A stretch of DNA of 64,000 nt from Crassostrea angulata (lineage: Eukaryota), in the NCBI RefSeq assembly GCF_025612915.1, contig NC_069115.1, forward strand, positions 25,599,757-25,663,756, in the 5' to 3' direction. Under the pieces are notes generated by a model. The model was not told the DNA's origin. It did not search any database and saw nothing but the letters and a program-made list of their open reading frames with translations. This document shows, in pieces, positions 1,671 through 61,266 of this stretch. Positions within the stretch are counted from its first letter, which is position 1. The number at the start of each line of letters is the position of its first letter. The translations under genes and the position numbers were made by a program.

Positions 1671-1941
1671 ACTAAAATGAATAAACACGAAGTCCGAGTA
1701 CAATATAAGCGCTTTCATATTCACCTGAGGTAAAAGCTCAAGCGAGCTATTCTGATCACATTTTTTCCGTCGTCCGTCTGTAAACTTTTTACATTTTGAA
1801 CTTCTTCTCTAAAACCGCTTGGCAAATAAATTTCAACCAAAGCATCCTCATAAGAAGGCGAATTTAAATTGCAGAAATAAAAGACCGATCTTTATTCAAA
1901 GCGGAAAAAAACATCGAAACTGAAGAAAAAGGGGCTGCATA

Positions 1942-1972
<31 letters not shown>

Positions 1973-2386
1973 TCAAATTCACCGTAATTTAGCATAAATC
2001 ATCCTTATGGGAAGGAAAATATAAATTGCAAAAATTAAGGGCTAATTCTGTTTCAAATTTGAGTAATTTACGAAAATAATAATAAGACAGAGAGAATGGG
2101 GGTCAATCAGTTTAACTTCAGGCTCGATATTTTATATATCGAAAACCGGTTTAGAGGACCAGTCTAAGTTAGAAGAAGCCATCTTGAAGTTGAACGGAGA
2201 TGAATTTAATTTGGTTGTTGTGCAACAGTTTATGTGCGAAGGGAATATTTGAAACATCCAAAATATATTTGTGCCGTTTATGTGAAGTAAATTGAGGTTT
2301 AATATTTCAGTGCGTTGACATTTTCATTTGTGACGGTCGTTTTTAGCTTGTTTTGATTTTTGTTTAGCATTTTTATGCCCCCCTTC

Positions 2387-2775
2387 GAAGAAGGTCCAAC
2401 AATATTTTCCGTTTATTTTCTTCGCAGAGGGTGCACTTATTGATATGAAATTTAGTATACAGGTTTATCATGATAATATCTACGTGAAGTTCGTTATTGG
2501 GTACTATCGAGCAATTTTCGACAGAGTTATGGCTCTTTGACGTAGAAAAATTCAGGTTATTTGCAGTTTCTGCTCATTTTCTTCACAGAGGGTGCACATA
2601 TTGATATGAAATTTTGTTTACAGGTTTATCGTGATAATATCTAGGTCAACTTTGATTATGGGTATGATAGAGCAACTTTCGACAGAGTTATCCCCCTTGG
2701 ACTTAGAAAAAGTCCAAAAATTTGCACTTTATGTTCATTTTCTTTGTAGATGTTTCCAAAGGAGGGGGTGGGCAT
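2387..2775. repeat. ~168-bp tandem repeat (about 2.3 units) bracketed by CCCCCC...GGAGGGGGTGGG motifs, inserted within R1 copy 1
   Basis: Units ATTTTCTTCGCAGAGGGTGCAC...GTTATGGCTCTTTGACGTAGAAAAATTCAGG repeat at 2407, 2576 and a partial third. The other R1 copies (10860-10900, 26288) do not contain this segment. Confidence 0.7.
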
Positions 2776-3529
2776 AAGTGTTTCACAAACATCTCTTGTT
2801 TTAACTTGAGAGGAACCATCGTCTTTATTTTACATGTAGACCGGTAAATCAGACAGCTGATTGATTAATAGCGCAAAATCTGATGCACTAACAACATATT
2901 TTAAAATACTATCCATTATGTTGGTGCATGTAATTCGGTACGATCTCTACATAATGGTTGATTAATACAACATGTTTTATTAAGATGCTCAGCAATTTTA
3001 ATCTAAACGGAGATAAGTCTCGCTGCTAGAAATACATAACTAAAGTATATATATGATGAAAAAAAGATTGAGCTTTTTCTTTGCTTTAGTGCAGTTTTCT
3101 CTTGTTTTAATTGTTTACAAATTTCTATAATTTTAGTAAGAGTCAAGCTTCGAGTTATAAGCAAGATACAGAGCTTTGCGCCTAATGCTACCATATGTTT
3201 GTACACAAAGCTGAGGTCATGCTTAAGTTCGTTTATATTTTAAATGCATCTATGCTGAATAGGAAATACCAAGTTTAAAAAATCTGTAGTTGAATGTAAT
3301 AAACTCATGTGAACAAAAACATGACTCAAATCAAGTTATGTATCTTGCTTATAATTCTACGATTGACGCTGAAATTTTGGTTGATCAATAGAAATGTCTT
3401 GCTAAAAGGATGATATGCTTTTTATATTGCATATGATCTTATTTTCGGTAAAAATGGTATTCCATAAAGGTAAATATGTCAAAGATTAAGTATATGCAAA
3501 ATAGGGGTAAAATCTTGATATTCATTTTT

Positions 3530-4310: not shown

Positions 4311-5039
4311 ATTTATTTTATTATACTGCTTTAATATAAAAATGAAGTGAATTCCATGGCAAACCGTACGCGCATAATTTATGTTCATGTTCACTATCAG
4401 GTTCAAATTTAATGACTTATACAAGATTGATGTTGCACTTGTAGTTCTCAAAGTAAGGTTGGTCCCGTAACATTTACACGCTAATGGCGGAGTTGACAAT
4501 CTCTGTTATTTATGTCTCTGACTTTCGGAGTAGGATTTTTAATGAATGGAACGGTTGTATCGTAATTCGTGTAGGTGATGCACGAGTTTTCACAAAAAAG
4601 TGGTAAGTGGCGAACGGATTTATTTTTACCTATTAATTTTGCATGAATAGCAAATGAAGAAAATCGTATCAAATCTTTTTATTGTCAAAGTTCTTGGAAT
4701 CTTATTGTTAAAAAAAATATTTCTAATATCAGGTGCTTGTGTTTGTTATCGGTATAAAATGTTCCCTTTGTTTGTTAATTCAGCAGTTTTCGGGGTTTTC
4801 ATTAAACTTTTATTACGGATACCGTCCGACTTGTGGATTTTCCTTTGGATCACAAAATTGAACAAATCTAATGATTAATGTTATCTACTTATATAGTTGT
4901 TTGATATTCCCGGTTAGTTGTAATTTTTAAAATTTTCCTTGGTGTCTTATTTTACATAGTATACCGTTGTGTCAATTTTCTACAATTATAAAGGCCAGGA
5001 TTGAGTAAAATTTAGACGAAGTATCAGACAATTGCAAAC

Positions 5040-6340
5040 AAGAGGCCCATGGGGCCACATCGCTCACCTGAGCACCAATGGGCGTTCAAAAGATATTGTG
5101 CCTTATGGTCCCTCGGTAGAATAACAAAAAATAAATATTGTCAAGTATTCGAATTTTACACTTATTTTTGCATACACGTAATCTTTGACATTGTACCTTC
5201 TTGAGATGCTATTTTTTACCAGAATAAGAAAATCCTATGCAAGATATAAAACTAAGCATTTGGTAGGTGTACACTGTAAAGTTGTTAACTTCCAATTCCC
5301 TATATATATTCGTTCTGCCCCCCCCCCTTTGTAAAGCGATCAAAATATGTGAGAGCAAATAGGTACAGTTTTTTCATCAACTACTTACTAGTTATTGTAT
5401 TTTTAAAAAAAATAGTTATTGTATTTTATTTAAAAAATACTACGTGTATAGATGTGAAGAAGAAAATTGTACCTCAATGTCCTCAATTCCTCAAATTTAA
5501 AACATTCAAAAATTTAATTTGTCTTCTCCATTATAATTAAATGACTGTTATTTACCTCGCGTACAAACCAGGATAATTTTCCGCTGTGATATTTTCTTAG
5601 GAATAGCGATAATTACTTTATCCCCGCAACAGAAATGTGTCAGAACTATGGAAACTGTTTTAAAGATGTCGTTTTTTATTTACTCGTGTTAAAAAAACTA
5701 TCAAAATTGATGTAAATTTCACATTAATTATTGTATAAAGAGGGGGCCCCAGAGAGTAGGTATATACAGAATATCATTCTTTTATTTTGTTTTTATAAGT
5801 ATTTAACATACTCTAATTCATATAGAATTTCTAATGTTCAACCAAAAGTTCACCGTCAATCGTAGAATTATAAGCAAGATACAGAGCTCACAGTTCGCCT
5901 AGGTTTGAGTCATATTTTGTTCACATGAGTTTATTACATTCAGCTTAAAATTTTTAACTTGGTATTTCCTATTCAGCATTTAAAATGGAAAAAAAGAATG
6001 GTCTAAGATTTTCAATTCTTTTATTCACTCAAGACCAGTTCACTGGTATTTGAGGTTCAAAATCAGTTTATACAAATGTACATAAACACAGTCCAGGATC
6101 ACATGTACAGTAGGAGTAATAATGACGAAAAAAGGTTAAGTTTACAATACAATTAGTTGTTAAAGTTGGTTTCTGGAAGAACAGACTATGAAAATTTTCT
6201 TAATAAATATTGACAAACTTTTTACTTTTTTAATCTTTAGTTTTTAAGATCTGTGTACAAACATAGAATTGTGAGCAACTCTCTGTATCTTGCTTATAAT
6301 TCGAAGCTTAACACTCAAATATGGTTAGTAAATAGAAATT
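5040..6340 (-). mobile_element. Inverted partial copy of the R1 3' region plus an unrelated repeat segment (family D, 5995-6235)
   Basis: 5215-5300 and 5565-5760 are the reverse complement of 28180-28460. 5866-5995 and 6238-6340 are the reverse complement of 27760-27990. 5995-6235 is the reverse complement of 50440-50650. Confidence 0.5.
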
Positions 6341-6408
6341 GTAAACAATTAAACACAAGAAACATGCACTATAACAAATAAGGAACACAATTTATTTTTT
6401 CGAAATGA

Positions 6409-6411
<3 letters not shown>

Positions 6412-6465
<54 letters not shown>
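6412..6465. repeat. (AT)n microsatellite
   Basis: Uninterrupted AT dinucleotide run. Confidence 0.9.
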
Positions 6466-6467
<2 letters not shown>

Positions 6468-6729
6468 GTATATACCTACATATTTCCGTCAGCGATATCA
6501 AACTCTATTTAAACTGAATAAACTCGAGAAAATGCCGAGCATCTCAACAAAACCTATTGCATTAATCTACCATTACGCAAAAGATACTGCCGAATTACCG
6601 ATAGAATGAATTGTATTTCAGTACTTTTTTATACATCAGATTTGCTTAATTTGCGCAGGTAAACAATTAACTATTTGATTTACCGAAGTCTCTGTTTGAT
6701 TTGATACGTAAAAATCACGAAATACAGAC

Positions 6730-7499
6730 GATAGTTCCCAGGTTACAAAGCATAAATAATGAAAACGAAACGAAAATCAGAACAAGCTAACACCAACGTC
6801 ATGTGTGAAAACTGTCAACGCATTGAAATATTTAGCCTCAATTTACTTCACAAAATCGGCACCAATATATTTTGCATGTTTCAAAAATTTCCCTTCATAC
6901 GCAAACTGTTGCACAACAAGCAAATTCATCATAGTCAGATCGACCCTTTTTCGTATAATGTCATGGCTGCTTTAAACAAAGAACCTCGTTTTAGAAGTAT
7001 GGAATACGAGTCTTGGTAAAATGGGTATGCAAACCCGGGCCGTGGCAAAATAAAAGCCGGGGCAGATCGACAATCGTCAATTCCAAATACGCATTATTTT
7101 GTACAATATTTACAGCCAATACAAATATACTGGTCCATCAAATATCCTGAAATTTTAATGAGATTGGCAGATCAATAACTGCCAATCTTTTGTTTTGCCC
7201 AGACCAAGTTTTGCCTACCCATTATACCGGATGCCGAACGCGAAGCTGAAACACGCTTTTCCTTTATTATTATTTTCGTAATAACTCAGATTTGAAACAG
7301 AATTAGCACTTAATTTTTGCAATTTATATTTGCCTTCCCATAAGGATAATTTATGGTAAACTACGTTGAATTTGCCTCGGTAGTTCTTGAGAAGAAGATT
7401 TTTAAAAATGCACCCCCTTTTTCTACACTTTCAAGGTTTTTTCCGCTTTGAATACAGATCGGACTTTTATTTCTGCAATTTATATTCGCCCTCCCATAA

Positions 7500-7531
<32 letters not shown>

Positions 7532-7621
7532 ATTAGCGGTTTTAGAGAAGAAGTTCAAAATGTAAAAAGTTTACAGACGGACGGACAGACAGACGGACGA
7601 CGGACAAAATGTGATCAGAAT

Positions 7622-7650
<29 letters not shown>
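6730..7650 (-). mobile_element. R1 family copy in minus orientation
   Basis: 7560-7650 is the reverse complement of the R1 head (GACGGACGGACAGACAGACGGACGACGGACAAAATGTGATCAGAATAGCTCACTTGAGCTTTCAGCTCAGGTGAGCTAAAAA). 6760-7020 is the reverse complement of the R1 tail ...GCTTGTTTTGATTTTCGTTTCGTTTT. The ORF 6759-7019 is an artefact of this repeat. Confidence 0.6.
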
Positions 7651-7658
<8 letters not shown>

Positions 7659-7799
7659 CCGAATTAACATTGATTGTTACAACTAATTCAAACTCATAAA
7701 TTTTAGAAGCATATTCGAGGAAATCTAGGACAATAACAAATTCAAACTTTCAAGACCACGTGTTTCAGTACTCTCAGTACTTTGATTGGTTAATCTACC

Positions 7800-7875
7800 G
7801 AGGGGCCACATGGCACAATGTCCATTGAACGCCCATATAAAGCCAGTGTTGCTCAGGTGAGCAATGTGGTCCATT
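7800..7875. repeat. ~50-bp hairpin mini-element (TTGTTGCTCAGGTGAGCAATGTGGCCCC..TGG) adjacent to an R1 end
   Basis: The same motif occurs at 5041-5075 (reverse complement), 13545-13590, 28600-28650 and 37201-37230 (reverse complement). TTGCTCA/TGAGCAA forms a 7-bp stem. Confidence 0.5.
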
Positions 7876-8042
7876 TGGTCTCTTGTTGTATTATCATTTC
7901 TCAAAAATTATTCTTTATCGACCCATCAAATAATGCGTTGATGTGTCGAGCCACCGTAAACGGTACTATTTGGACAATCAAGCTGTAAAATGAAATTTTG
8001 GAAATCCACGTTTATTTATGAGGGAAAAAAGTATTTTTATAT

Positions 8043-8800
8043 TCCTGTTCCGAAGGAGAGGGGGTATACTGTTTTACCCTTGTGTGTCTGTCTGTCCGTC
8101 TCTCCGCCCGTAACAAAAATTTCTGTCGCATTTATCTCAGCAACTATTAATCGCAGATGCTTGACATTTTTACAGTGTTTGTTACGGCATGCCATATCGT
8201 GAGATATATTTCTGTACCAATCCGACGTCAACTTCCTGTTAAATGACGACTTTGCTTATTTTTTAACCAAAATTTTCAAACAAATTTTCCTCAAAAATTT
8301 CTTAGCATTTATTTATCGCAGATGTTTGGAATTTTTACACAATATTTGTATAGGCAAGTCATATCGTGGGATATATTTTTGTACCAATCAGACGTCAACT
8401 TCCTGTTAAATGACGACTTTGTTTATTTTTAGCCAAATTTTTCAAATTTCCGTCAAAGATTTCTCAGCAACTATTTATCGCAGATGCTTGAAATTTTAAC
8501 ACACTATTTGTTTTGGCATGCTATATTGTGGGATATTTTTTGTATCAATTGGACGTCAACTTCCTGTTAAATGAGTACTTTGTTTTATTTTAGCCAAAAT
8601 TTTCAAACAAATTTTCCTCAAAGATTTCTCAGCAGCTATTTATCGCAGATGCTTGAAATTTTAACACACTATTTGTTTAGGCATGCCATATTGTGGGATT
8701 TATTTCTGTACCAATCGAATGCCAGCTTTCTGTTAAATGTCGACTTTGCTTATTTTGCATATTCACATCAGAGCGGGGGTATTACTAGTGAGCATTGGCT
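8043..8800. repeat. Cassette of a ~165-bp tandem repeat (about 4 units) bounded by GAGGGGGTATACTG..(GTCTGTCC)n and GCGGGGGTATTACTAGTGAGC
   Basis: The motif ATCGCAGATG recurs at about 8150, 8318, 8477 and 8646. Each unit contains CGACGTCAAC (ACGT core). The end motifs are related to those at 17395, 19866 and 22590. Confidence 0.7.
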
Positions 8801-9519
8801 CACAGATACCTTCTTTTTTTTGCTCAATTATTTTTTGCTCATTCCATGAATATATTATATTGAACCATTTCTTTTCACATGTATTTCTTTTATTCAAAAA
8901 GTAAAAATATTTTCAGGCTGTTAAACAGATGGCAAACAGGCTACTTGAATTTCTCTGGATCATTAGATTCCATTCTGATGTGTAAGTATGTAATTACTAT
9001 CGTGAAATTCATGACTCTTACACTCAGGAGAAACTACAAAAAATAGAAAAATCGTTAATTAAGGTGTTCAGTTCCAACGGAAGATCTTCTTGTTATTGCT
9101 TTGTTTTGTTTCCCTTATTATTCTTCTTCTTTTTTTTCTTACGCATTTTTGTGCATACGAGTTCTCGGGAACGGCTTGGCTGATTTTAATGAAACTTTCA
9201 GAACTAACACATATTGATCTGAACCTTATTGGAAATTTTTATATTGATGACGTCATTTCCATTTTAGAGATATTGACGTTTTAACGATTTTTAGAGGGTT
9301 GGCTTGTCCGGTGATTTTTTTCTAAACGAAAACAGATATTTGATTCAAATTTTCAGGGTTTGTAGACCTATGATTGTGGATACGACAGAAGCATTTTCAT
9401 TGTTCAGTGACAAAAAACACCAAAGCTCACCTGAGCTTAAAAATTGAGTTCAAAAGCGTCATGATTTTTTTTGTGGTTTTCTTTGAATATCTCTTTTCTC
9501 AAAATTATTTTGTTAAGAC

Positions 9520-10230
9520 TTGTAGAACAAAAAAAACTTTAAAAGGCCAAGAGCTTTCATTTGACATCATGGAAAAGGAGCTGGCCCTTAAATTAAGGGC
9601 CGTAAGGGCTCTGAAGTATTCTAATAATATCTTTTTACTGTGAAATATTTTGTAATACTTTATAGAAGCAATTATGTTCATCGTAACGTTATGTACCTAT
9701 GCATGACAATTGTTTACTCCTTTGTTACGTAATTAGGGATATTAAGGGACCAGCAGTCCGAAATTTTGATCTTATATATCTGAAAATGAAGAAAAATTTT
9801 GAAAAGCAATGTTGAACAAAAGATGCTCCATATAATGTCGTTAACAATTTGCAACCATAATTTTTTTGTTATCCAGTCCCTAAAAGGAGTTATAGGGTCG
9901 GCCCCTAAAACGATCTCTTCCAGATATCTCTTGAACGGTACAAACTTTCTACATATTTGTTTAACAAAATGTGTTTGAAATGACAAGAGCTTTCTTTTCA
10001 CATCAAGAAAAAGGGGCTGGCCCTTCAAATTAGGGGCTGATAGAGATCTAAAGTCTTTTAATAATAACTTTTAATTGTGAAATATTTTGTAATACGTTAT
10101 TGAAGCAATTATGTTCATCGTAACGTTATGAACCTAAACATGACCATTGTTTATAGAGAAACATTTTGAAAAGCAGTATTGAACAAAATATGCTCATAAA
10201 ATGTGGTCAACAATATGTTACCATAACATT
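9520..10230 (+). repeat. Repeat family E (~400-bp unit), two tandem copies immediately 5' of R1 copy 2
   Basis: 9520-9930 is similar to 9930-10230. A third copy lies at 16720-17230. Confidence 0.5.
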
Positions 10231-11160
10231 TTGGCTCATCTGAGCTGAAAGCTCAAATGAGCTATTCTGATTGCATTTTGTCCGTCGTCCGTCTGTCCGT
10301 CCGTCTGTAAACTTTTTACATTTTGAACTTCTTCTCTAAAACTGCTTGGTGAATTTCAACCAAATTTGGCACAAAGCATCCTTATAGTAGAACGAATATA
10401 AATTGCAGAAATGAAATACTGATCTTTATTCAAAGCGGAGAAAACCTCGAAACTGTAGAAAAGGGGTGCATTTTTTAAAATCTTCTTCTAAAGAACTACT
10501 GAGTCAAATTCAACGCAATTTAACATAAATAATCCTTATGGAATGAAAGGAAAATATAAATTGCAAAATTTAAGGGCCAATCTTTTTCCGAATTTGAGTT
10601 ATTACGAAAAGAGTAATTGGAAGGGGTGGGCTTCGATCAGTTTATAACATCGGGTTCGGTATTCCATATCTCAAAAACCTCTTTGAAGCGGCCATTTTGA
10701 ACGTGTGAGAAATGGGTCAATCTGACAAAGATGAATCTGGTTGTTGTGTATATATTTGAAACATGCAAGATACATAATGCCAATTTTGTGAAGTAAATTG
10801 AGAAAAATTGAGTAAATATTCCAATGCGTTGACATTTTCACCTTTGACGGTGGTTTTAGCTTGTTTTGATTTTCGTTTCGTTTTCATGAATTACGGTTTG
10901 TAACTTAGGGGAACTATTACCTGTATTTTGTTATTTTTATGTATCAATAAAATATAGACATCGGTATATAAGACAGCTGACTGTCACGGTACTTTAAAAA
11001 CTAAAATGCAAATTCTTATGGTAATACGGCATGGTCTTTGCGTAATAGTTTATTACTGCAATGTGTTTAGGCTATTTGTCAGTATTTTCTCTAGTCTATT
11101 CAGTCTAAATGGAGATTAATTTTGCTGATGAAAATACTAAGTGTGTGTACATGGAGCAGA
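10230..11160 (+). mobile_element. R1 family copy 2 (5' part), continuous with the downstream tandem array
   Basis: The head TTTTGGCTCATCTGAGCTGAAAGCTCAAATGAGCTATTCTGATTGC..(GTCCGTC)n is collinear with copies 1 and 3. Confidence 0.6.
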
Positions 11161-11994: not shown

Positions 11995-12025
<31 letters not shown>

Positions 12026-15129: not shown

Positions 15130-15275
15130 CTGAGAGTAATGCTTCGAGTTATTATAAGCAAGATACAGAGCTTTGCGCACAATGCTACTATATGTTTGTA
15201 CACAAAGCTGAGGTCATGCTTTAGTTTGCTTATATTTTAAATGCAGCTATGCTGAATAGGAAATTCATTCTTTCC
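15130..15275 (+). mobile_element. R1 3'-region fragment
   Basis: Matches 3130-3270 and 27790-27900 (...GTTATAAGCAAGATACAGAGCTTTGCGC..GCTGAATAGGAAAT). Confidence 0.45.
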
Positions 15276-17369: not shown

Positions 17370-17394
<25 letters not shown>

Positions 17395-17402
<8 letters not shown>

Positions 17403-17500
17403 TACCCCCGCAAACGAAGTTTAGGGGGGTATATTGGTTTCACCCTGTCCGTCTGTCCGTCTGTCTGTCTGTCCGTCTGTCCGTCTGTCTGTAGACGCAA
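17395..17500. repeat. Perfect GC-palindrome TATACCCCC-GCAAACGAAGTTTAG-GGGGGTATA followed by a (GTCCGTCT)n microsatellite
   Basis: The hairpin has 9-bp stems and is read directly. About 10 GTCY repeat units follow it. The same module type bounds the cassettes at 8043, 19866 and 20488. Confidence 0.75.
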
Positions 17501-19865: not shown

Positions 19866-20590
19866 TTTTTATAGCCCCCGAAAACAAAGCTTGGGGGTAT
19901 ATATGAATCCGACCGTCCGTCCGCCTGTCCATCTGTCTGTGGAGAATTCGTGTCCAAGGTCATTTGGGCAAGGTCAAGGTCACTGGCAAAAAAAAAGTGC
20001 AAAATTCGTGTCCGGTCCATATCTTTCTTATGGAGAAACATTGGAAGTTCTTACTTTACACAAAGATTGCTTCTGACCTCAGGGTGTGTCATGACCTTGA
20101 CCCGAGGTCATTTGGGCAAGGTCACTGGCAGAAAAAGTGCAAAATTCGTGTCCGGTCCATACCTTTCTTATGGAGAAACATTGAAAGTTTTCACTTCACA
20201 CTAAGATTGCTTAGGTCTTAAGGGTGTGTCATGACCTTGACTAGAGGTCATTTTGGTAAGGTCAAGGTCACTTCCAGAAAAAGTGCAAAATTAATGTCTG
20301 GTCCATATTTTTTATGGAGAAACATTGCAAGTTCTTACCTTACACAAAGATTGCTTCTGACCTTAGGATGTGTCAAGACCTTGACCCGAGGTCATTTGGG
20401 CAAGGTCAAGGTCACTGTTAGAAAAGTGCAAAATTCATGTCCGGTCCATATCTTTCTTATCGACAAATATTGGAAGTTCTTTATTAGTCCCCTACCGGTT
20501 TCGCTGGAGGGGACTATAGCTTTCCTCTGCGTCCGTCAGTCTGTCTGTACGTCGGTCTGTCTGTCTGTCCCATTTCAGTTTTCCACACTT
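19866..20590. repeat. Cassette of a ~143-bp tandem repeat (about 4 units) rich in AGGTCA/TGACCT motifs, bounded by C5/G5 palindromes and (GTCY)n
   Basis: TGTGTCATGACCTTGACCCGAGGTCATTTGGGCAAGGTCAAGGTCAC recurs at about 20086, 20228 and 20372. The heads are AGCCCCCGAAAACAAAGCTTGGGGG (19870) and AGTCCCCTACCGGTTTCGCTGGAGGGGACT (20495). A degenerate unit lies at 22010-22140. Confidence 0.75.
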
Positions 20591-22879
20591 TTTCTTTATG
20601 CGTTTGAGGAATAATATGAAATTTGCTGAACAGCTTCAAAATGTCAAACTACAGATCAAGTTTACACTTTTGTAACGTCTGGTTGAATTATTTTGGAGAA
20701 AATTATTTTTTTATATTCCATTTTTAAGGCGTCGAGCTAATGCTCGGCAGCCTTCTAGCAATCGTCTGGATTGGCAATCGTCCAAATTCATGCTCTGCAC
20801 CGCCTTTTAAATGTACATAAGAAATAAGTTCCTTAAAGTATTAAAACGTATTACAAGATTTTTATTCCATTTATTAAACTAAATTGTGTACAAAAAAACC
20901 AACTTTGCCTACCTGGTTATTGACAACTCATTGCATAAGTATAAATTTGCTTAATCAAGAAATGGCGGATGAATACAATCAGGTGTAAAAATTCAATAAA
21001 TATTATTTTAGTTTATCGCATACATTTTAATTGGAGAGCGTGCCCGATAGAAATAAAATTTGCGATGTAAATTTATTTGTTATCGGGCACGGTCTCCAAA
21101 ATAAATGTAAGGGATAAACGTATCTAGTGATTTTGTTGCTCAAAATAAACACGATAATGTAGTTGGTCTGGTCGAGCATTTTAAATAGCACGTGTTGTGG
21201 ATTTGTTTGTAAACAACCGTACCATAGGGAATCTTGTTTCAAACGGGAATTGAAATAAATAAAAGTATGTTTTATTATTATTATTAGGGACATACTGTTA
21301 ATGTATTCAAATCATGAACCTGTGAAAATTGTTTAAAGAAAATAATTTATTTTTGAACTTTGAAATTTCTTCGAATTTTGTAACCATAATGAGTTATTGA
21401 ATTGTAAAAGCACCAATACCTATTGTATAAGAAAATAAACTTATTTTTGTTTTTAAAGCAGCACAAAACATAATTCATATACTTCTCTATTTTATGTCTA
21501 AAATTATTTGATATACGACTATTAAATTAACAGAAATTCAAATTATTGATATCATTCTATATAAAAGAAAATGTCAGTTCGACGCCTTTGTGGCCGTTCC
21601 GGCCTTTGATTTAATGTTCGGGTTCATTATCGGGTTCGGTGTGTACTGAATAAACGAGGAAAGTATGAAGTCATTAATAATATCGTGATTTACTTGTACC
21701 ATTCCTTTTATTGTTTCTAACAAACAAATGAGTTCAATCTGTAAAATAGTGTCAAGCATTGTGTTGTTAATTTAATCGATGGTTTTTTGTATTATTACAA
21801 TCGGGTTCGCTATCGGATTAGTTTGTTGATTCAGGGAACAGAAGACGGTAAGAAATGATATTCTGCATAACAGTGCATTGTTTTCATAAATTTCTACCAC
21901 CAAATACTTAATGGACTTGGCGAAATTACTGGAGATAAAATAAAGAGTATTATTTAATCCATTTTTATTTAATTTCTATATCGACGTCTATTGCTTATGC
22001 AATACTCTCAGAATGCTTGTTCACATAAAGATTGCTTATAACCTGAGGGTGTGTCATGACATTGGCCCAAGGTCAATTGAGGAAGTTTAAGGTCATTATT
22101 TTAAAAATGCTTAATTCCTGGTTGTGTCATGTCTTGTATTAATGGAAATAATTAGAAGCTAAAATTTGAAACAAAGCTTGCTTGTCTCAAACCACATACA
22201 ATTATTTTTTAGATTCTCATCCCCGTCTGTCTGAAAATAGCCTGCCCCGATGTAATTTTTTTTTGGAAAAAAAATTGTGTGGAACAAATTTTCGGAAAAG
22301 AATCAGGCTCAGTATACCAATAATTCAAAATGTTTATATTAAATGGCTGCTTGACATGTGGATTCTTGTTTGATTCGAGTCATGTTTGTTAACCTAAGGA
22401 TGCAAATGTCTTCATGCATCAACAGTTAACTTGAAATAAAATGGAATTTAAAGAATTGAAATATGTATTCATATTAGCATTAACAGTTTTAAAAAAAATA
22501 GAACAGTTGTTTATTTATAGAAAATGGACGGTGTAATAGATTCATCCAATATTTTCTATAATAGAAAAAATACATGAATTATTTTTTTTTCTTAGCGGGG
22601 GTATCAATTGTGAGCTTGCTCACTGTACCTCTAGTTTTTAAAGGTGTAAGTTCCTATTGCAGTTTTTGACATTAAATGAATGCTTAATACATTTTTGAAA
22701 ACTGTCTGAGAATTGTATATGCATATTTGCATTTTGGAAAAATCTGAAAATTTTGCACCCAATTCTCTGTTGCTAGATTTTAAGCTAGAGAGGTGGTATT
22801 GCCATATTTAAGATTTTATGGCCTCTGTAGCTAAGGTTTTGACTTCCAAATTTACCTTAAGAGTGTTGGATTGTCATGG

Positions 22880-23590
22880 GTTTTTAGCTCACCTGAACCG
22901 AAGGTTCAAGTGGGGTTTTCTGATCACCTGTTGTCCGTCGTCCGTCCGTCTGTCCGTCCGACTTTTCATATTTTTGACTTCTTCTCTGGAACCATTGAGT
23001 ACAATTTAACCAAATTTGGTACAAAGCATCCTTATGGGAAGGGGATTCTAAATTGTTAAAATAAAGGGCACAACCCTTTTTAAAAGGGAGATAATTGCGA
23101 AACTGCGAAAATTGGGTGGGTGTCTTAAAAAATCTTCCTTTTAAGAACCACTGCACCAGATATGCCAATATTTACCCCAGAGCTTGTATATATAGTGAAG
23201 ATTCTAAATTGTAAAAATCGCGATCCCCGGGGCAATACTGGGGTCCCAAGAAGGGTTCAAAGTTGATTAAAAAAAGACCAATTTAACATAGAAATATATG
23301 GGGGAAATGTTTTTAAAAATGTACTCTCAAGGACTACAGTGCTAAAATTAGTGATATTACTATACAAGTACCCTAAGATAGTGTAGATTCTAAATTGTGA
23401 AAACCGTGATCCCCGGACTAATACTACCTACGGCTCCAAAATATGTTCAAAGTTTAACATAGACTTCTATAATGGGAAAATGTTTTTAAACTCTTCTTTT
23501 TAAGAATTACAATGCTACAGTTTGTGAGATTACCATGCAATCATTCTAAGAAAGTGCAGATTCTAAATTGTTTAAATCATTTTTTATTAA
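22880..23590 (+). mobile_element. R1-variant head followed by three ~160-bp tandem units
   Basis: TTTTTAGCTCACCTGAACCGAAGGTTCAAGTGGGG..(GTCCGTCC)n is followed by repeats of ...GATTCTAAATTGT(G/A)AAAA(T/C)CG(C/T)GATCCCCGG... at about 23200, 23390 and 23560. Confidence 0.55.
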
Positions 23591-25452
23591 AAGAAGTATT
23601 AAATAAAAAAGAAATGTCCATGATAAGTTTATCATAGTTAAATTCTCTGGAAATACATGTGTATGTTTATCGACTAGTTTTTTTGTGTTTTTTTTTTTTG
23701 GAATTTCGATCCCGACATCAATTACTCACATATCGGGATCCAAGTGATTCGGGATCAAAGATCATAAATTCAAACAATGAGTTGCGACGAACTAAACAAA
23801 ATAGTTAAAACTCACATACGCACATAGGACTTCATCCCACAAAGTTTAGATGTTCAATTTTTTTTTCGCGGAACAGGAAATGGAAGAACGGATGTGAATT
23901 TTATAAACTTAAATAAGAAACCTCCAAATATTTTTATTTTCAATCTTTCCTGAAAATTTTAAGAAAATCGATTTCAAAATCTCTGAGAAATTCACTAGAC
24001 AATAAGGGAAAAAACATAATAATCAACAGTACAATCTCTATAAGATATTCCGCTGGAAAAGGAATACCTCAATGATTTCATTATCATTGTCATTATAATA
24101 CACATAGATATTCATTGCAAAAGCCACACTATAGTTACTCAGATGTCCAATTTGGCCCATGGGCCCGTTGTTCAAGTTGTCTGGCAAAACTCTGAGGGTT
24201 CTTGTAAGTTATATGCCTATCTTCATTCACTAGTAAACGATCAATTGCTATTGCAGTTGATAACAAAAGAGTTATATGTTTGTAGTTTACTGGTATTATA
24301 TGTCTTGTCCTGCCTTTATTTTTAAGATGTGATGGAGAGAGATGTAAATACAGAATCAAAGAAACTGGCAATACAGAGCTTGGTACTTCTCGAAAATGTC
24401 ATCAAACAGGCGAGTTCATGATCACTAACTACACGTACTTGTGATTTGGTTATTATCAAACAAAAAGCATTTGCAACTTACCAGTTTTCGATTTCATTTT
24501 TATATGCATTTCCATACTTAAGTCTTGCATGTAGTAACATATTCAATTTTACAATTCCTTTGGAATATAGTATCAGGGTATCTGTTAAAATATCATAAAA
24601 AATGATGGATAAAAATTTCAATAACCATATGATTTTAAAAAGATAATTTTTACTATTTAAGTATAGCTAAGAACTTGTTAAAAATAATTGCTTGGTGTAT
24701 TGGAATCTTGCAGGAGTTTACAAAAGGAGCTAATCTTACATGAGACAGCAAGATAACAACAAGTTATGACCTTTGTCCTTGAAATAATCCTTAACACCGA
24801 CAACTGTCAGAAATGAGAAAGAAAACTTTCACAGAGGATTCTATTTAACATGATAATTTGGAAGCACCAAGTTACATGCAGAGAGGATGTGTGGAAACAT
24901 CTCCTTGGAGAGTTTTGATCACCAGATACAGAGAGAGTTTTGATCAGAAAGAGAGGGGGTCTCCATTACAGAGATATTATAAAATTTCTGCTGTAACTAT
25001 TCTCATGAACAATTTTAAGTGACTTGTTTGTGCATTTTCCATTATTTTTAATTTCAATTAAATTTACCATTACATAATTAATTGCATAGTTGTTTTTTGT
25101 ACATGATATTCAACATGATAGAATACATGCATCTGTTCATGTTTTGTTTGAAGAGATTATCTAAACATCTAAACCAATCTTGTAACTAAAATATGTAGCA
25201 TCGAGAGAGCAATTAAGTTGAATATTTTTGAACTAATCTACTGCAGAAAACGTGAAAGTAATAAATACTTTGTATATTAATAATTACATAGTACTATTAT
25301 TTGTGGAAAAAACATTATGTACATATTTAGGTTTTTAGCTCACCTGAACTCAAAGCTCAAGTGAGCTATTCTGATCACATTTTGACCGTTGTCCGTCTGT
25401 CTGTGTCCGTCTGTAAACTTTTTACATTTTGAACATCTTCTCTAAATCGCTT

Positions 25453-25486
<34 letters not shown>

Positions 25487-26287
25487 TTATGGGAAGGCGA
25501 ATATAAATTTCAGAAATAAAGGCCGATCTTTATTCAAAGCGGGAGTAACCTAGAAACTGTAGAAAAAGGGGTTCCATTTCAAAACAATCCTCTTCTCAAG
25601 AACTACTGAGTCAAGTTCAACGTTATTTAACATAAATAATCCTTATGGAAAGGAAAATATAAATTGCAAAAATGTTAAGCTATTGCTGTGTCAAATCTGA
25701 GTTATTACGAAAATAATACATTGTAATAAAGGAAAGGCGAGTTTCAATCAATTTATAGCTTCAAGTTCGGTATTCCATACGAGTCGTGGTGAAATGGGTA
25801 AGCAAACCCGGGCCGGGACAAAATAAAAACAGATCGAGATTTTTCAATTATCCAATGTCATTTAAATTTTAAGGATATGTGTCAGACCGGTATATTTGTA
25901 TTCGCTGTAAATATTGATAGACAACAATGCGTATTTAGGAATTTATTGACGATTGTTGATTTCCAAGTTGGTAAAATGGGTAGGCAAACCCGGGTCGACA
26001 TTTTACGGGTTTTTGGACTTATTTAAGAATTAATAATTCATGTTTAATTCCATACTTCTAAAACGAGGTTTTTTGTTTAAAGCAGCCATGACTTATGATA
26101 AACGGGTCGATCTGAGAAAGATGAATTTGTTTGTTGTGCAACAGTTCGCGTGCGAAGGGAATCTTCGAAACATGCAAAATACATTGGTGCCGATTTTGTA
26201 AAGTAAATTGAGGTTAAATATTTCAATGCGTTGACAGTTTTCACATGACGGTGGTGTTAGCTTGTTTTGATTTTCGTTTCGTTTTTT

Positions 26288-27393
26288 GGGAGTTGATTTT
26301 AATCAACTCTCCTATGCAGTTAATCAGACAAACCGAAAGTGAAACAGTGTTTGGACCTCAGCACAAATCATCACTGCTGACAAGACTTAGTTCTTGAAAA
26401 TGATTGATGAATTCGATGTAATGTATGCTAAAGCATTGTTTTTCAAGGAAACTTATTTATAAATACCTTGAAAATAGTCAGATTTTAAATGGTACAATGT
26501 ACGAATAATTTAAATATTTTTTGTAGTCGTATGTATTCCTACGCCAGAGTTCAATATAGCCTCGTTCAAGGTATCACACCGGTAATCGGCCAATCAAAAT
26601 GAACTTGTCAATTGTAGTTCCATATATACTTCAGAATTATTTTTTTCCTTGACTGCATTTTTACATTTTCCTTTACTCAGTTATAAAAAATTGTGTACCA
26701 CTGAGTAGGATATTTCATGTATTTTGTTAGGTGATGATCTTTTTTCACAGGGACTACTTCTTTCAGGGCACATGCAGCAGCTTCCTGGGGAGTGTGCAGT
26801 CTGTTTAAATACAAATGGAAAACACGTGGTTTTGAGGGTAGACCTGTTTGGAGCTAGATATTTTGAGAAAACGCAGGTTCGCTTGCCCTTTTTATGGTGT
26901 TAGCTGATGAGATAGGTAACAAATAACATTTCCTCCGAATATTTTGTCATGAGGAATACAAACTGATTTTTAAGAATGTTTTCCCCTCTATAGTGCTATA
27001 TAGTGAAAACAATTACCGGTGTGATACCTTCAACTGGACGCTAGGCTGTCTCCGTAAATGCTTGTCGGAGATTTACGGTGTCAGCCGAGCGTTTGGTTGA
27101 ACGAGACTAGAGTTCAATATTGCTTGGATCCATACAATTTTTTAGAAATATTTTGTATTACTAATACATAGTTTGATTGAATTAATTTTACTCTAACTAT
27201 TATTTAACATGATTCATATAGGGGGTTCTCGACATTCTTGTCGAAAAAGTCCAAAAATTCATATTATAAAAATGTGCGTATTTCAAATACAAATTAGAAA
27301 CTACATGTACTTGTCAAGCAAAATAACATATCATTGATTTTAAGATAAACAAACATCGACAAAATCAACTCCCGTCAGTTCTTCAGTACTTTG
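26288..27393. mobile_element. MITE copy A (TIR GGGAGTTGATTTT / AAAATCAACTCCC) inserted into R1 copy 3
   Basis: The TIRs were read directly. A second copy at 58426-59057 shares the ends and the internal 37-bp hairpin module. The ends are marked out by comparison with the R1 copy that lacks this element (10860-10900). Confidence 0.65.
26570..27028. mobile_element. Second-order nested MITE (TIR GGTATCACACCGGTAATCGG / ATTACCGGTGTGATACC) with a TTCAA target-site duplication
   Basis: This segment is absent from MITE copy B. It is flanked by TTCAA on both sides (26565-69 and 27029-33). It splits the hairpin module of MITE A. Confidence 0.6.
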
Positions 27394-29822
27394 ATTATTA
27401 TTAATGCTTTGTAACCAGGGAACTATTGCCTTTGTTTTGTAATATTTACGTATCAAATTAAACAGAGACCTCGGTAATTCAGACAGTTGACTGTTTACCT
27501 GCGCACATTTAGCAAAATCGGATGTATAACAAAGTACTAAAATACAGTTCATTCTATCGATAATTCGGTATGATCTTTTGCGTAATGGTTGATTAATACA
27601 ATGTGTTTTTTAGATGCTCGGCATTTTCTTGAGTTTATACAGTTTAAATAGAGTTTAATATCGCTGACGGTAATATGTAGTATAGATATATGATCCATTT
27701 TGAAAAATAAATTGTGCTCTTTATTTGTTATAGTGCATGTTTCTTATGTTTAATTGTTTACAATTTCTATTTACTAACCATATTTGACTGTCAAGCTTCG
27801 AATTATAAGCAAGTTACAGAGCTTTGCTCACAATTGTAGTTTGTACACAGATCTGAGGCAATCTTTTGTTTCCATTTTTAATGCTGAATAGGAAATACCC
27901 AAGTTAAAAATCTTCAGCTGAATGTAATAAACTCATGTGAACAAAATATGACTCAAACCTAGCAGAATCGTGAGCTCTGTATCTTGCTAATAATTCTACG
28001 ATTTACGCCGAAATTGTTGATCATTAGAAATGTCTAGCTAGACGTTGAATACTTGTACAAAAATTTAAAAGATGATATGCTGTAACTACTCCCTGGGGGC
28101 TCCACTTTATACAATGAATAATATGAAATCTACATCAATTTTGATAGTTTTTTAGACACGAGTAAATAAAAACGTCACCGTTAAAACAGTTTCCATCGTT
28201 CTTGTACATTTCTGTTGCGGGGATAAAGGAATAATCGCTATTCCTAAGAAAATATTCAACGGAAAATTATCCTGGTTTGTAGCCATTTGTTATTTTTGAA
28301 TAAAGATGAAAATAATGGTTGGGCCTTAATAAGATAGAGTGATATGCCTGCCAATACAGTGATTTTTATAGCTCTTTAGAACGAAATATAGGGATTTGGA
28401 AGTTAACAGTGTACCCCTACCAAATGTTTAGTTTTATATCTTCCGTAGGTTTTTCTTATTCTCGGTAAAAATAGTATTCCATAAAGGTACAATGTCAAAA
28501 ATTATGTGTTGGCAAAAAATTTCGATACTTAACAATATTTAATTTTTGTTATTCTATCGAGGGTCAAATAACACAATATCTTTTTAACGCCCATTTAAAG
28601 TCATTGTTGCTCAGGTAAGCGATGTGGCCCCATGGACCTCTTGTTTATAAAATGAAATGTTGACACGTCCGACAATAGTCTTTGAACCTTGGGCTAGTAA
28701 CTTTGTTAAATTTGTAATTGCACACCCCAGGCGTTTGTTTTTTTTTATATTTAAAGCTGACATGAATTAATAAATATGTCACGGTGTGAAATTCAGTCTT
28801 TCGGACTGTTTTTAATTATTGTGTAAATTTTAACTTTTTTTCGGACTTTGTGTTAATTGTTACAAAAACTTTCCCTCTATTTCAGCAACTGTTTTAAAAA
28901 CGTTTCAAATTCCACGTAGCCTTAATCCCACCTGAGGCAGAATCGGTGATGGACAGCTAATCTTTTAATTGACTTCTATTTATGTTTATTGACACTTCTT
29001 TCATCTTATTAATCCTTTTATATAATTATGTATATGCTGCTAAAATGTCATGAATTACTCAATAGCTGTTCTTTAATTGATTTTCTTACTTCTGTACATA
29101 TTATGTTAATCCTTCATTGTGTTATTCCATTTGTCATTATATATAATTCTGAATTGTAAAATATGGTCAGTTGGAATCAACCTTCGGTACTGATGCATAC
29201 CAAACTCACGTAAATGTATATTTCATGTAAAGTCTATATAAAAGTCTGAAAACTAAAATGCGTGTTGGCTTGTTGGAGGTTTCGTGAGGCTGGGTCCAAC
29301 AACAAGAGAATAAACACAAGGTTGACCCAGTACTACATGTAGTCCTGTACGGGAGAGAGAATCCCGTAATAAATGCAAATAATGTCCCTTTTATCTCCGT
29401 ATACCGCCATATTAGTTGTCGATTTCTTTTGTCCTGCTCATCGCTACACACCCCCTATATAAGGCAGAGAGCGTTATCATGCTTTAACTCATTCAGAAAT
29501 TTCATACATCCGAACACGTTACCTTGGACGATAAGACGTGTAGACACGAGTTTTTTACAAAAATAACATGACAACCACTGCACTGGCAAGATATATCCAA
29601 TAAACGACGAAACAAAACAGACTGAAATCCAGGTGCAAATACTTCAAAAATACCATGATATTCATTATGTTCCAATTCGAACAATCTCAAACGAACATAA
29701 AATATTTACTACCTTATTCAATCATAACAACACAAAGACTAGCGCATTTCGAATGTAACAAATTAAAGAAAGGGGAAAAAGAAAAATTATGAACTATATT
29801 TGTTTTTACTTTATATAGATAA

Positions 29823-61218: not shown

Positions 61219-61266
61219 GCAAACAGCAAACGTAAATTTTACAAAGATCTAAATTAAGTGTCTTAC

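What the first reader, a model, noticed from the sequence alone, without database searches (positions are those of the whole stretch)
1719..28650. Modular family of satellite-carrying elements: GC-palindrome hairpin plus (GTCC/GTCT)n heads bracketing different internal tandem arrays
At least six loci share head modules and differ in their internal arrays. The loci are 2387-2775, 8043-8800, 10230-13400, 17395-17500, 19866-20590 and 22880-23590. The head modules are C5/G5 hairpins such as TATACCCCC..GGGGGTATA, AGTCCCCT..AGGGGACT and CCCCCG..GGGGG, each followed by (GTCYGTCY)n. The internal arrays are ~168, ~165, ~165 G-rich, ~143 AGGTCA-rich and ~160-bp units. One locus has no array at all. The larger R1 elements that host them start with TTTTAGCTCACCTGAGC and appear to end with TTGCTCAGGTGAGCAA..., which gives short inverted termini. 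This 'conserved ends plus variable tandem core' architecture is what is described for Helentron-associated HINEs ('pearl'-like elements) in bivalves. If it is the same here, this window shows satellite arrays being seeded and dispersed by a mobile element.
Basis: partly seen in the sequence, partly recalled or inferred. Interest (0 to 1): 0.65.

Follow-up and report, generated by a model that had tools for sequence, protein, structure and literature searches.

The report
Known oyster Helentron satellite carriers
This stretch of Pacific-oyster-like DNA is packed with old copies of already described non-autonomous rolling-circle transposons (Cg_HINE / "Helitron-N" elements) that carry short satellite arrays, so the pattern is real but ordinary for this genome.

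Summary
Eight (GTCY)n microsatellite loci (36 pattern hits against 0.3 expected) each sit just 3' of a hairpin.

The interpretation (Helentron-associated HINEs, pearl-like) is supported, but this is published biology. The window is Magallana (Crassostrea) gigas or a very close relative. The "R1" head and tail match the published Box1, Box3 and Box2 of Helitron-N2/N2C_CGi at 87-97% identity. The arrays match published satellites:
- 8135-8756 matches CgiSat08 (CL3, Cg_HINE_3) at 92%.
- 12124-12847 matches CgiSat01a at 82-91%.
- 23125-23264 matches CgiSat09 at 88%.

- R1 is not a host. It is itself a HINE with 5' subTIR, IR, microsatellite, body, 3' subTIR and palindrome.
- Arrays are bracketed by a head and a tail, not by two heads. 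I located the missing tails at 8775-8821, 18744-18776 and 22597-22639.
- The "array-less" locus is the head of a 1.38-kb element.
- The second head at 20485 belongs to an element nested in the 144-bp array.

The seven elements whose two ends I could place show no target-site duplications and have T-runs at both boundaries. Copies are 70-86% identical, so they are old fossils.

One small extra: Box3 is collinear with the CgiSat01/09 monomer, so it may be a proto-monomer.

The parts
1721..3513 (+). N2-like HINE copy A ('R1'). It is 5'-truncated (partial Box1 at 1736-1760, eroded microsatellite at about 1767-1781, Box3-like units from 1782). No 3' tail was found.
   Evidence: Self-BLAST to copies B, C and D at 70-85%; Box1 and Box3 hits; head alignment.
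2370..2802 (+). Nested small HINE (H5). Parts: 5' TTTTTATGCCCCCC; 161-bp x 2 array at 2406-2744; 3' subTIR GGGGGTGGGCATAA at 2764-2777; stem-loop TGTTT-CAC-AAACA at 2779-2791; end ...CTCTTGTTT. It has no microsatellite.
   Evidence: Empty-site alignment against four R1 paralogues that lack it; TRF; sequence.
5036..7657 (-). Complete N2-like HINE copy B, 2.6 kb. Parts: Box1 at 7653-7610; microsatellite at 7605-7575; two Box3-like units; about 2 kb of unique body; Box2 at 5074-5038.
   Evidence: head hairpin z = -4.15.
7786..7887 (+). Orphan N2-like tail fragment (Box2 at 7847-7874).
8034..8821 (+). Cg_HINE_3-like element (H1). Parts: eroded 5' subTIR TATATTCCT at 8038-8046; IR GGGGGTATA at 8060-8068; microsatellite at 8082-8105; CgiSat08 (= CL3) x 3.8 at 8135-8756; 3' subTIR GGGGGTATTA at 8775-8784; palindrome GTGAGC-ATTG-GCTCAC at 8788-8803; T-run end.
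   Evidence: CgiSat08 at 91.5-92.6%; CgiSat08 = CL3; tail fold z = -3.7; sequence.
9072..10229 (+). 5' part of a Box4/Box5-type HINE (Helitron-N3/N31-like). Parts: half of Box4 at 9072-9098 and about 1.6 CgiSat02 units at 9551-10231. It stops where copy C begins.
10230..11839 (+). N2-like HINE copy C. Parts: Box1 at 10234-10271; microsatellite at 10280-10306; Box3. It contains a head-deleted CgiSat01b-like block at 11176-11677, which starts with TAGCTCACCTGAGG. It has no tail of its own.
11840..13590 (+). Complete Cg_HINE_1/2-like element (C3), 1.75 kb. Parts: Box1 at 11851-11883; eroded microsatellite at 11889-11915; Box3 at 11919-12061; CgiSat01a x about 7.7 at 12069-13360; Box2 (3' subTIR GCTCAGGTGAGC plus GGCCCCTGGGC palindrome) at 13551-13589.
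16759..17400 (+). 3' part of a Box4/Box5-type HINE. Parts: CgiSat02 units at 16759-17255 and Box5 at 17359-17400 (97.6%). It ends in CTAGT, directly abutting the next element's head.
17400..18776 (+). TATACCCCC-family HINE without a tandem array (H2), 1.38 kb. Parts: perfect hairpin at 17401-17433; (GTCY)11 at 17447-17490; 3' subTIR GGGGGTATTA at 18744-18753; stem-loop GTCC-CATTA-GGAC at 18754-18766; end CTAGTT.
19866..22639 (+). TATACCCCC-family HINE (H3). Parts: head at 19870-19901; microsatellite at 19911-19938; about 144-bp array at 19954-20481, resuming at 22020-22120; 3' subTIR GGGGGTATCA at 22597-22606; palindrome GTGAGC-TT-GCTCAC at 22610-22623; end CTCTAGTTTTT. Its flanks are related to H1 but its array is unrelated, which is the pattern published for group 2 (Cg_HINE_3/_6).
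20480..22019 (+). Element nested in the 144-bp array (H4). Parts: perfect hairpin TAGTCCCCT...AGGGGACTA at 20485-20516; microsatellite at 20531-20570; 3' stem-loop ATTGC-TTAT-GCAAT at 21990-22003. No matching 3' subTIR was found.
   Evidence: z = -4.2.
22881..23575 (+). Cg_HINE_10_13 / Helitron-N2C-like copy F, 3'-truncated. Parts: Box1 at 22885-22927; microsatellite at 22933-22963; Box3; about 2.7 degenerate CgiSat09 units.
25332..28646 (+). Complete N2-like HINE copy D. Parts: Box1 at 25336-25379; microsatellite at 25391-25406; Box2 at 28605-28644. It is interrupted at about 26286-27396 by an unrelated insertion whose 13-bp TIRs (GGGAGTTGATTTT) span 26289-27373.

Best explanation
The region 1.7-28.6 kb is a nest of at least 13 full or partial copies of non-autonomous Helentron-type rolling-circle transposons (HINEs). 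They belong to families already described in the Pacific oyster as Cg_HINE elements, named Helitron-N2/N2C/N16-N25/N3-N31_CGi in Repbase.

**Anatomy of each element.** A 5' T-run, an 11-12-nt subterminal inverted repeat (subTIR), a nearby complementary IR that forms a hairpin with it, a (GTCY)n microsatellite, an optional array of 140-170-bp satellite monomers, the 3' copy of the subTIR, a short terminal stem-loop and a T-rich end.

**Shown here.** The anatomy; sequence identity to the published boxes and satellites; absence of target-site duplications; T-rich boundaries; nested insertions; related flanks carrying unrelated arrays.

**Inferred from what is known of Helitrons and Helentrons.**
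- A Rep/helicase(-endonuclease) protein from an autonomous Helentron elsewhere in the genome nicks at the 5' end.
- It peels off a single strand until the 3' hairpin signals termination.
- It reinserts the strand at a TT site, carrying the internal array to a new locus.
- Array length then changes by slippage or unequal exchange.

The copies in this window are old and decayed.
For: - Published Box1, Box2, Box3 and Box5 and CgiSat01a/b, 08, 09 and 02 map onto the heads, tails and arrays at 72-98% identity.
- A published CL1 array is 77% identical over 411 bp.
- CgiSat08 = CL3 and CgiSat09 = CL10/13, by the authors' own statement.
- The structure matches the published HINE definition feature by feature.
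- The seven elements whose two ends I could place show no TSD and have T-runs at both ends.
- Empty-site alignment for the nested element at 2370-2802.
- The microsatellites are far above chance and are always 3' of a hairpin.
- The same hairpin-plus-microsatellite module recurs in 18 independent marine and other metagenome contigs. One of them (L103) has the same subTIR, palindrome and CTAGTTT tail.
- Species: 100% and 96% protein matches to Magallana gigas and a Logan contig; CgiSat24 at up to 95%.
Against: - No autonomous Helentron (Rep/Hel ORF) is in the window; there are only five ORFs of 120 aa or more. The published work itself could not link any autonomous C. gigas Helentron to the Cg_HINEs, so the mobilising enzyme is inferred.
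- The 161-bp and about 144-bp arrays and the TAGTCCCCT head could not be matched to a published consensus. The CL sequences are only in a figure, and exact 11-14-mers drawn from these two arrays do not occur in the satellite consensus file (Data S1), apart from one incidental 11-mer in CgiSat21.
- H4 lacks a 3' subTIR.
- The 5' junction of the nested element at 2373-2378 is ambiguous, because host and element share the 6 nt TTATGC.
Confidence: 0.9

Rival explanations
1. They are non-autonomous canonical Helitrons, as the Repbase names say, not Helentron derivatives. They would be mobilised by a Rep/Hel protein without an endonuclease and would insert at AT.
For: - Repbase labels the matching consensi 'Helitron-N*_CGi'.
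- The TATACCCCC and Box5 families end in CTAG followed by T, which resembles the Helitron CTRR 3' end.
- No autonomous partner has been identified.
Against: - The elements start with a T-run, not 5'-TC.
- The upstream host base is not consistently A.
- They carry paired subterminal inverted repeats plus an IR and a microsatellite, which are HINE/DINE-1 features and not Helitron features.
- The N2-like family ends in CTTGTT, not CTRR.
Confidence: 0.07
2. They are cut-and-paste MITEs (the original classification of pearl elements), mobilised by a DDE transposase that recognises the inverted repeats.
For: Short inverted repeats lie near both ends, the elements are small and they have no coding capacity.
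Against: - None of the seven elements whose two ends I could place has a target-site duplication.
- The repeats are subterminal.
- The ends are asymmetric: hairpin plus microsatellite on one side only, stem-loop on the other.
- The field has re-classified pearl as a HINE.
Confidence: 0.02
3. The association is chance or a local duplication. Either satellites and hairpin/microsatellite motifs happen to lie together, or the R1 copies arose by segmental duplication of this region.
For: All copies lie within 27 kb, and several are fragmentary or abut one another.
Against: - Copies are in both orientations with unrelated flanks and 70-86% identity.
- Order and orientation (head, microsatellite, array, tail) are constant.
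- The microsatellites are about 100-fold above chance.
- The same modules occur thousands of times genome-wide in the literature and in independent metagenome contigs.
Confidence: 0.01

Closest known systems
Cg_HINE elements of Crassostrea gigas (Vojvoda Zeljko et al. 2020, PMC7492417) and the Repbase Helitron-N2, N2C, N2d, N16, N25 and N3/N31-type _CGi consensi
   Same: - Same species or nearly so.
- Same module order.
- Same GTCY microsatellite.
- Same satellites: CgiSat01 = CL1/2, CgiSat08 = CL3, CgiSat09 = CL10/13.
- Box1, Box2, Box3 and Box5 at 87-98% identity.
- T-rich insertion sites and no TSD.
- 'Group 2' behaviour, in which related flanks carry unrelated arrays, is seen in H1 versus H3.
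   Different: Nothing essential differs. The long 2.6-kb N2-like form carries two Box3-like units and a unique body instead of a satellite array. The 161-bp and about 144-bp arrays and the TAGTCCCCT-headed element could not be assigned to a named Cg_HINE with the sequences available to me.
Pearl (CvA, CvE, CvG) of Crassostrea virginica, MgE of Mytilus galloprovincialis and DTC84 of Donax trunculus
   Same: Bivalve elements with conserved flanks, an ACGG/GTCC-type microsatellite and about 160-bp central repeats related to the Cg170 satellite family (my own knowledge for the microsatellite motif).
   Different: They come from different species.
DINE-1 / HINE of Drosophila and of the mite Metaseiulus (Thomas et al. 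2014, PMC4067079)
   Same: The defining structure is shared: 12-15-bp subTIRs, an IR next to the 5' subTIR, a microsatellite, central repeats, a 3' stem-loop 8-35 bp from the end, a TT target and variable T-runs at the boundaries.
   Different: There is no sequence similarity. For DINE-1 the autonomous Helentron partner is known (98% identity). For the oyster elements it is not.

Membership tests
HINE (non-autonomous Helentron) | An 11-15-bp subterminal inverted repeat a few nt from the 5' end, with its complement near the 3' end. | tested here: met
   - N2-like copies B, C3 and D: GCTCACCTGAGC after a 5' T-run, and GCTCAGGTGAGC about 33 nt from the 3' end.
- H1, H2 and H3: TATACCCCC paired with GGGGGTAT(T/C)A.
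- H5: TTATGCCCCCC paired with GGGGGTGGGCATAA.
- Not met for H4, which has no 3' subTIR.
HINE (non-autonomous Helentron) | A short IR complementary to the 5' subTIR, 1-22 nt downstream (DINE-1/Cg_HINE type). | tested here: met
   The 5' subTIR and IR fold into hairpins with z of -3.7 to -4.2 at 7612-7657(-), 17398-17436 and 20484-20520. They are eroded at 8040 and 19866.
HINE (non-autonomous Helentron) | A microsatellite after the IR, followed by optional central tandem repeats in a fixed orientation. | tested here: met
   (GTCY)n lies 10-20 nt after the IR at 8 loci plus 2 eroded ones. Arrays follow in H1, H3, C3 and F. H2 and the long N2-like form have none. H5 has an array but no microsatellite.
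HINE (non-autonomous Helentron) | A 5-10-bp palindrome (stem-loop) 8-35 bp from the 3' terminus. | tested here: met
   - GGCCC(C)ATGGGCC in Box2.
- GTGAGC..GCTCAC in H1 and H3.
- GTCC..GGAC in H2.
- TGTTT..AAACA in H5.
- CTCGTTGC..GCAACGAG in Box5.
HINE (non-autonomous Helentron) | Insertion at TT or T-rich sites with no target-site duplication. | tested here: inconclusive
   No TSD appears at any of the seven elements whose two ends I could place, and T-runs sit at both boundaries. Only one paralogous empty site was available. It shows a T-rich site, but its 5' junction is blurred by a shared TTATGC. The exact TT target needs genome-wide empty sites.
HINE (non-autonomous Helentron) | An autonomous partner that encodes Rep/Hel plus endonuclease and shares the termini. 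| not testable with these tools
   The window holds no Rep/Hel ORF, and so do the metagenome contigs that carry the head. The literature reports that the partner is unresolved.
Cg_HINE_1/2/10_13 (Helitron-N2/N2C_CGi group) | Box1 at the start, Box3 after the microsatellite, Box2 at the end, and CgiSat01 or CgiSat09 central repeats. | tested here: met
   Box1 at 87-94% in 5 full copies; Box2 at 92-97% in 4; Box3 at 85-89%; CgiSat01a at 82-91%; CgiSat09 at 88%.
Cg_HINE_3 (CL3 = CgiSat08) | Central repeats of CL3/CgiSat08 (166-167 bp, about 31% GC) and a GTCY microsatellite in the left flank. | tested here: met
   Four monomers at 91.5-92.6% to CgiSat08. GC is 31.9%, against 31.16% published. The microsatellite is at 8082-8105.
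Cg_HINE_6 (CL6, 147 bp), as the candidate for the element at 19866-22639 | Flanks related to Cg_HINE_3, with unrelated repeats of about 147 bp and about 39.6% GC. | tested here: inconclusive
   Head and tail are homologous to H1. The array is unrelated to CgiSat08. The period is 141-148 bp and GC is 41.1%. The CL6 consensus exists only as a figure image, so no sequence test was possible.
Canonical Helitron | A 5'-TC start, a 3'-CTRR end, no inverted repeats, and insertion between A and T. | tested here: not met
   The elements start with a T-run followed by AGCTC or ATACC, and they have subTIRs. The N2-like end is CTTGTT. Only the TATACCCCC and Box5 families end in CTAG followed by T.
tRNA-derived SINE or known structured RNA | A tRNA-like head or an Rfam family match. 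| tested here: not met
   ARAGORN finds 0 genes. Rfam at gathering thresholds gives 0 matches in the whole window.

The most novel reading that the evidence does not exclude
The Cg170/CgiSat01/09 satellite, the most abundant in the oyster genome, may not have been captured by the Helitron-N2-type HINEs. It may have been born inside them.

The conserved 'Box3' between the microsatellite and the array is collinear with the satellite monomer over its whole length, except for a 27-bp G-rich segment (55-61% identity; conserved blocks CTTCTTCTCAARAAC, AAGCATCCTNAGG and GATTCNAANTTTGT). The long 2.6-kb N2-like form keeps two such units in tandem. Box3 would then be a proto-monomer, and the long form an ancestral two-unit state.

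In addition, the 161-bp array element, the element with the about 144-bp array and the TAGTCCCCT-headed element may be Cg_HINE families beyond the 11 already named.
Probability: 0.35. Interest if true: 0.3.

Novelty: already known. Interest (0 to 1): 0.15.

Why it matters
HINE-borne satellites explain why oyster satellite DNA is scattered in thousands of short arrays instead of lying in heterochromatic blocks. That conclusion was published in 2020-2021 for this species, so the window adds only a well-resolved local example. It shows nesting, head-to-tail abutment, related flanks with unrelated arrays, and array-less and array-bearing relatives side by side. The one modestly useful lead is the Box3-monomer homology, which bears on whether the arrays are captured or generated within the element. 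The real open question in the field is which autonomous Helentron mobilises these elements, and this window cannot address it.

Tried and rejected
- **Exact k-mer look-ups for the 161-bp and about 144-bp arrays** in the satellite consensus file (Data S1) of PMC8268682. The only occurrence was an incidental 11-mer in CgiSat21. The CL1-13 consensus sequences of PMC7492417 exist only as a figure, and its Table S1 is stored only for CL1. These two arrays therefore remain unassigned.\n- **Placing the window on a named assembly** through the look-up of encoding contigs. P0003 is not on record, and P0001 gave only a 3.6-kb Logan contig.\n- **Looking for an autonomous Helentron downstream of TATACCCCC heads** in metagenome contigs. 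No long ORFs were found.\n- **Looking for a 3' subTIR for the TAGTCCCCT-headed element.** None was found.\n- **Testing whether the region after the C3 tail continues the CgiSat02 element interrupted at 10230.** No match was found, so a simple single-insertion model for 10230-16759 is not supported.\n- **Testing relatedness among the four array types.** None was significant.\n- **tRNA and Rfam scans.** Both were empty.

Full report
**1. What is in the sequence**

The window is AT-rich (GC about 0.33) eukaryotic DNA.
- 2415-2744: 161 bp x 2.
- 8135-8756: 165 bp x 3.8.
- 12075-13099: 166 bp x 6.2.
- 19957-20481: 140 bp x 3.6.
- (CTGTCCGT)n at 17445-17489.

A self-BLAST of the window extends the G-rich array to 12069-13360 and finds a second block of it at 11191-11677. 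Its copies lie at:
- 1721-3513 (+).
- 7657-5036 (-).
- 10230-11839 (+).
- 25332-28646 (+).
- Two shorter relatives at 11840-13590 and 22881-23575.

The motif GTCYGTCYGTCY (up to 1 mismatch) occurs 36 times at 8 loci, against 0.30 expected, and no shuffle reaches this count. Every run lies on the same strand as a hairpin and 10-20 nt 3' of it. Intact head hairpins fold with z of about -4 as single-stranded DNA.

**2. Whose DNA it is**

An ORF at 61717-62421(-) matches a UniRef protein of Magallana (Crassostrea) gigas at 100% identity over the part they share (56% of the query), and another protein at 96%. The 66-bp array at 53.9-55.2 kb is the published C. gigas satellite CgiSat24, at up to 95%. 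The window is C. gigas or a very close relative.

**3. Match to published elements**

Two papers describe exactly this system in this species. Vojvoda Zeljko et al. 2020 (PMC7492417) define 11 Cg_HINE elements:
- Left flank: 5' subTIR, complementary IR and a microsatellite (GTCY, GTCC or GTCK).
- A variable spacer.
- Tandem repeats of 140-180 bp.
- Right flank: 3' subTIR and a palindrome.
- T-rich (TT) insertion sites and no TSD.
- One group whose members share flanks but carry unrelated repeats.

Tunjic-Cvitanic et al. 2021 (PMC8268682) publish satellite consensus sequences and the conserved 'boxes' of the Repbase Helitron-N elements. BLAST of those sequences against the window gave the following.

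Box hits:
- **Box1** (start of Helitron-N2/N2C_CGi) hits five full R1 heads at 87-94%, plus the truncated head of copy A.
- **Box2** (their end) hits 5074-5038(-), 7847-7874, 13551-13589 and 28605-28644 at 92-97%.
- **Box3** follows each microsatellite.
- **Box5** (end of the Helitron-N3/N4/N31 group) hits 17359-17400 at 97.6%.

Satellite hits:
- **CgiSat08** covers 8135-8756 at 91.5-92.6%.
- **CgiSat01a** covers 12124-12847 at 82-91%.
- A **CgiSat01b**-like variant covers 11206-11672.
- **CgiSat09** covers 23125-23264 at 88%.

A published CL1 array is 77% identical over 411 bp to 12200-12605. The authors equate CgiSat01 with CL1/2/10/13, CgiSat08 with CL3 and CgiSat09 with CL10/13. **CgiSat02**, a 437-bp satellite carried by Box4/Box5-type elements, covers 9551-10231 and 16759-17255.

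**4. Corrected anatomy**

- **R1 is not a host.** It is itself a HINE of the Helitron-N2 group. Its order is:
  - A 5' T-run.
  - subTIR GCTCACCTGAGC, a 5-nt loop, then IR GCTCAAGTGAGC.
  - (GTCY)n.
  - Box3 and the body.
  - 3' subTIR GCTCAGGTGAGC and palindrome GGCCC(C)ATGGGCC.
  - The end CTCTTGTT(T).
- **The G-rich array belongs to an N2-type element.** The 166-bp array and the locus-6 units are the central repeats of such elements. 11840-13590 is a complete 1.75-kb example.
  - GGGGGTATTA plus GTGAGC-ATTG-GCTCAC at 8775-8803.
  - GGGGGTATTA plus GTCC-CATTA-GGAC plus CTAGTT at 18744-18776.
  - GGGGGTATCA plus GTGAGC-TT-GCTCAC plus CTCTAGTTTTT at 22597-22639.
- **The 'array-less locus' is the head of a full element.** The element spans 17400-18776 (1.38 kb) and truly has no internal array.
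- **The element starting at 19866 runs to 22639.** Its 144-bp array is interrupted at 20480-22019 by another element with a TAGTCCCCT...AGGGGACTA head. The array resumes at 22020. The 'second head bracketing the array' is therefore a nested insertion.
- **The element at 2370-2802 is truly nested in an R1 copy.** Four paralogous R1 copies lack it. It has a 5' TTATGCCCCCC, a 3' GGGGGTGGGCATAA and a stem-loop, but no microsatellite.
- **Related flanks carry unrelated arrays.** H1 (CgiSat08) and H3 (144 bp) have homologous heads and tails but unrelated arrays. This is the published 'group 2' pattern.

**5. Transposon hallmarks**

The seven elements whose two ends I could place have no target-site duplication and carry T-runs at both boundaries. 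This fits the Helentron/HINE definition of Thomas et al. 2014 and argues against cut-and-paste MITEs. The 5' ends are not TC, and the N2-like 3' end is not CTRR, so canonical Helitron membership is not met. There is no tRNA-like or Rfam-known RNA. Paralogous copies are 70-86% identical and monomers about 82%, so these are old insertions.

**6. Independent check outside the window**

- In 18 of them the hairpin is followed within 60 nt, on one strand only, by (GTCN) repeated at least 3 times. It is usually preceded by Ts.
- One locus (L103) also has the GGGGGTATTC, GTAAGC-CTTC-GCTTAC and CTAGTTT tail 360 bp downstream.
- Another (L078) carries N2-type heads and Box3.
- Another (L034) carries a CgiSat08-like array.

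These contigs are presumably from bivalves or related animals sequenced along with the samples. The head is therefore a conserved, portable module, consistent with the literature on pearl-like elements.

**7. Mechanism**

Shown here: the anatomy, identity to published families, absence of TSDs, T-rich ends, nesting, and modular flank/array combinations.

Inferred from established Helitron/Helentron biology:
- A Rep/helicase(-endonuclease) protein supplied in trans by an autonomous Helentron carries out the transposition.
- It displaces a single strand from the 5' end to the 3' hairpin terminator.
- It reinserts that strand at a TT site.
- Arrays then grow or shrink by slippage or unequal exchange.

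The autonomous partner is absent from the window and is unresolved in the literature.

**8. One small new lead**

Box3, described only as a conserved 156-bp segment between the microsatellite and the repeats, aligns collinearly with the CgiSat01/09 monomer over its whole length, except for the 27-bp G-rich block. Identity is 55-61%. The local alignment scores have z = 6 to 10 against shuffles. The long N2-like form carries two such units in tandem. This suggests that the Cg170-family satellite arose by duplication of the element's own internal module. Equally, Box3 could be a decayed first monomer. I did not find this stated in the three papers I searched, but I cannot exclude that it is known.

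**9. Verdict**

The phenomenon is already known, in this very species. Interest is low.

Noticed in passing
window 53867-55297: A long array of the published 66-bp satellite CgiSat24 (85-95% identity). Its units contain a palindrome. The array flips orientation at about 55000: minus-sense units at 53867-55006, then plus-sense units at 54998-55194. This makes a head-to-head inverted junction.
   Followed up: partly
window 39851-40475 and 42159-42805: Two 650-bp arms, 90% identical and in inverted orientation. Each is built of 21/42/84-bp tandem repeats. They flank about 1.7 kb. This looks like a foldback-like element or one with long TIRs.
   Followed up: no
window 47066-53800: Blocks of (ACCCAAATGG)n-type 10-bp repeats and 16-bp GCCTAAACATCTTGGG repeats occur in both orientations, with 84-95% identical segments repeated directly and inverted (for example 47066-47364 versus 53795-53497). 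This is a second complex inverted-repeat structure.
   Followed up: no
window 17396-17401: The 3' end of a Box5-type element (...GTGTCTAGT) abuts the 5' end of the TATACCCCC element and shares a single T with it. Either one rolling-circle element inserted exactly at another's 3' terminus, or the two were joined by read-through.
   Followed up: partly
window 9072-10229 and 16759-17400: The 5' part (half of Box4 plus CgiSat02 units) and the 3' part (CgiSat02 units plus Box5) of Helitron-N3/N31-type elements lie 6.5 kb apart, with the N2-like copies between them. This may be one old element split by later insertions, but the sequence after 13590 does not continue it.
   Followed up: partly
window 2373-2378: The 5' junction of the nested element shares the 6 nt TTATGC with the uninterrupted paralogous sites. 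The first bases of its apparent 5' subTIR may therefore be host sequence (microhomology at the junction).
   Followed up: partly
window 26286-27396 (related copies at 58420-59056): An unrelated insertion of about 1.1 kb with 13-bp terminal inverted repeats (GGGAGTTGATTTT / AAAATCAACTCCC, spanning 26289-27373) sits in N2-like copy D. Its site is within about 20 bp of the position where copy A carries its own nested element.
   Followed up: partly
window 29823-30341 (-): A 172-aa ORF with a weak, sub-threshold match to the Phage_integrase (tyrosine recombinase) family (E = 0.0018). It is probably a remnant of a Crypton/DIRS-like element.
   Followed up: partly
window 61187-64000 (-) and locus L001: ORFs here match M. 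gigas proteins, one named 'MULE transposase domain-containing protein'. A 3.6-kb Logan contig (SRR14864884) is 85-95% identical over 2.7 kb and also encodes a DDE_3 transposase. This is another transposon copy.
   Followed up: partly
loci L078, L034, L103, L046 and others (metagenome contigs): Public 'metagenome' contigs carry bivalve-type HINE heads, Box3 and a CgiSat08-like array. This means animal DNA is present in those metagenome assemblies.
   Followed up: partly
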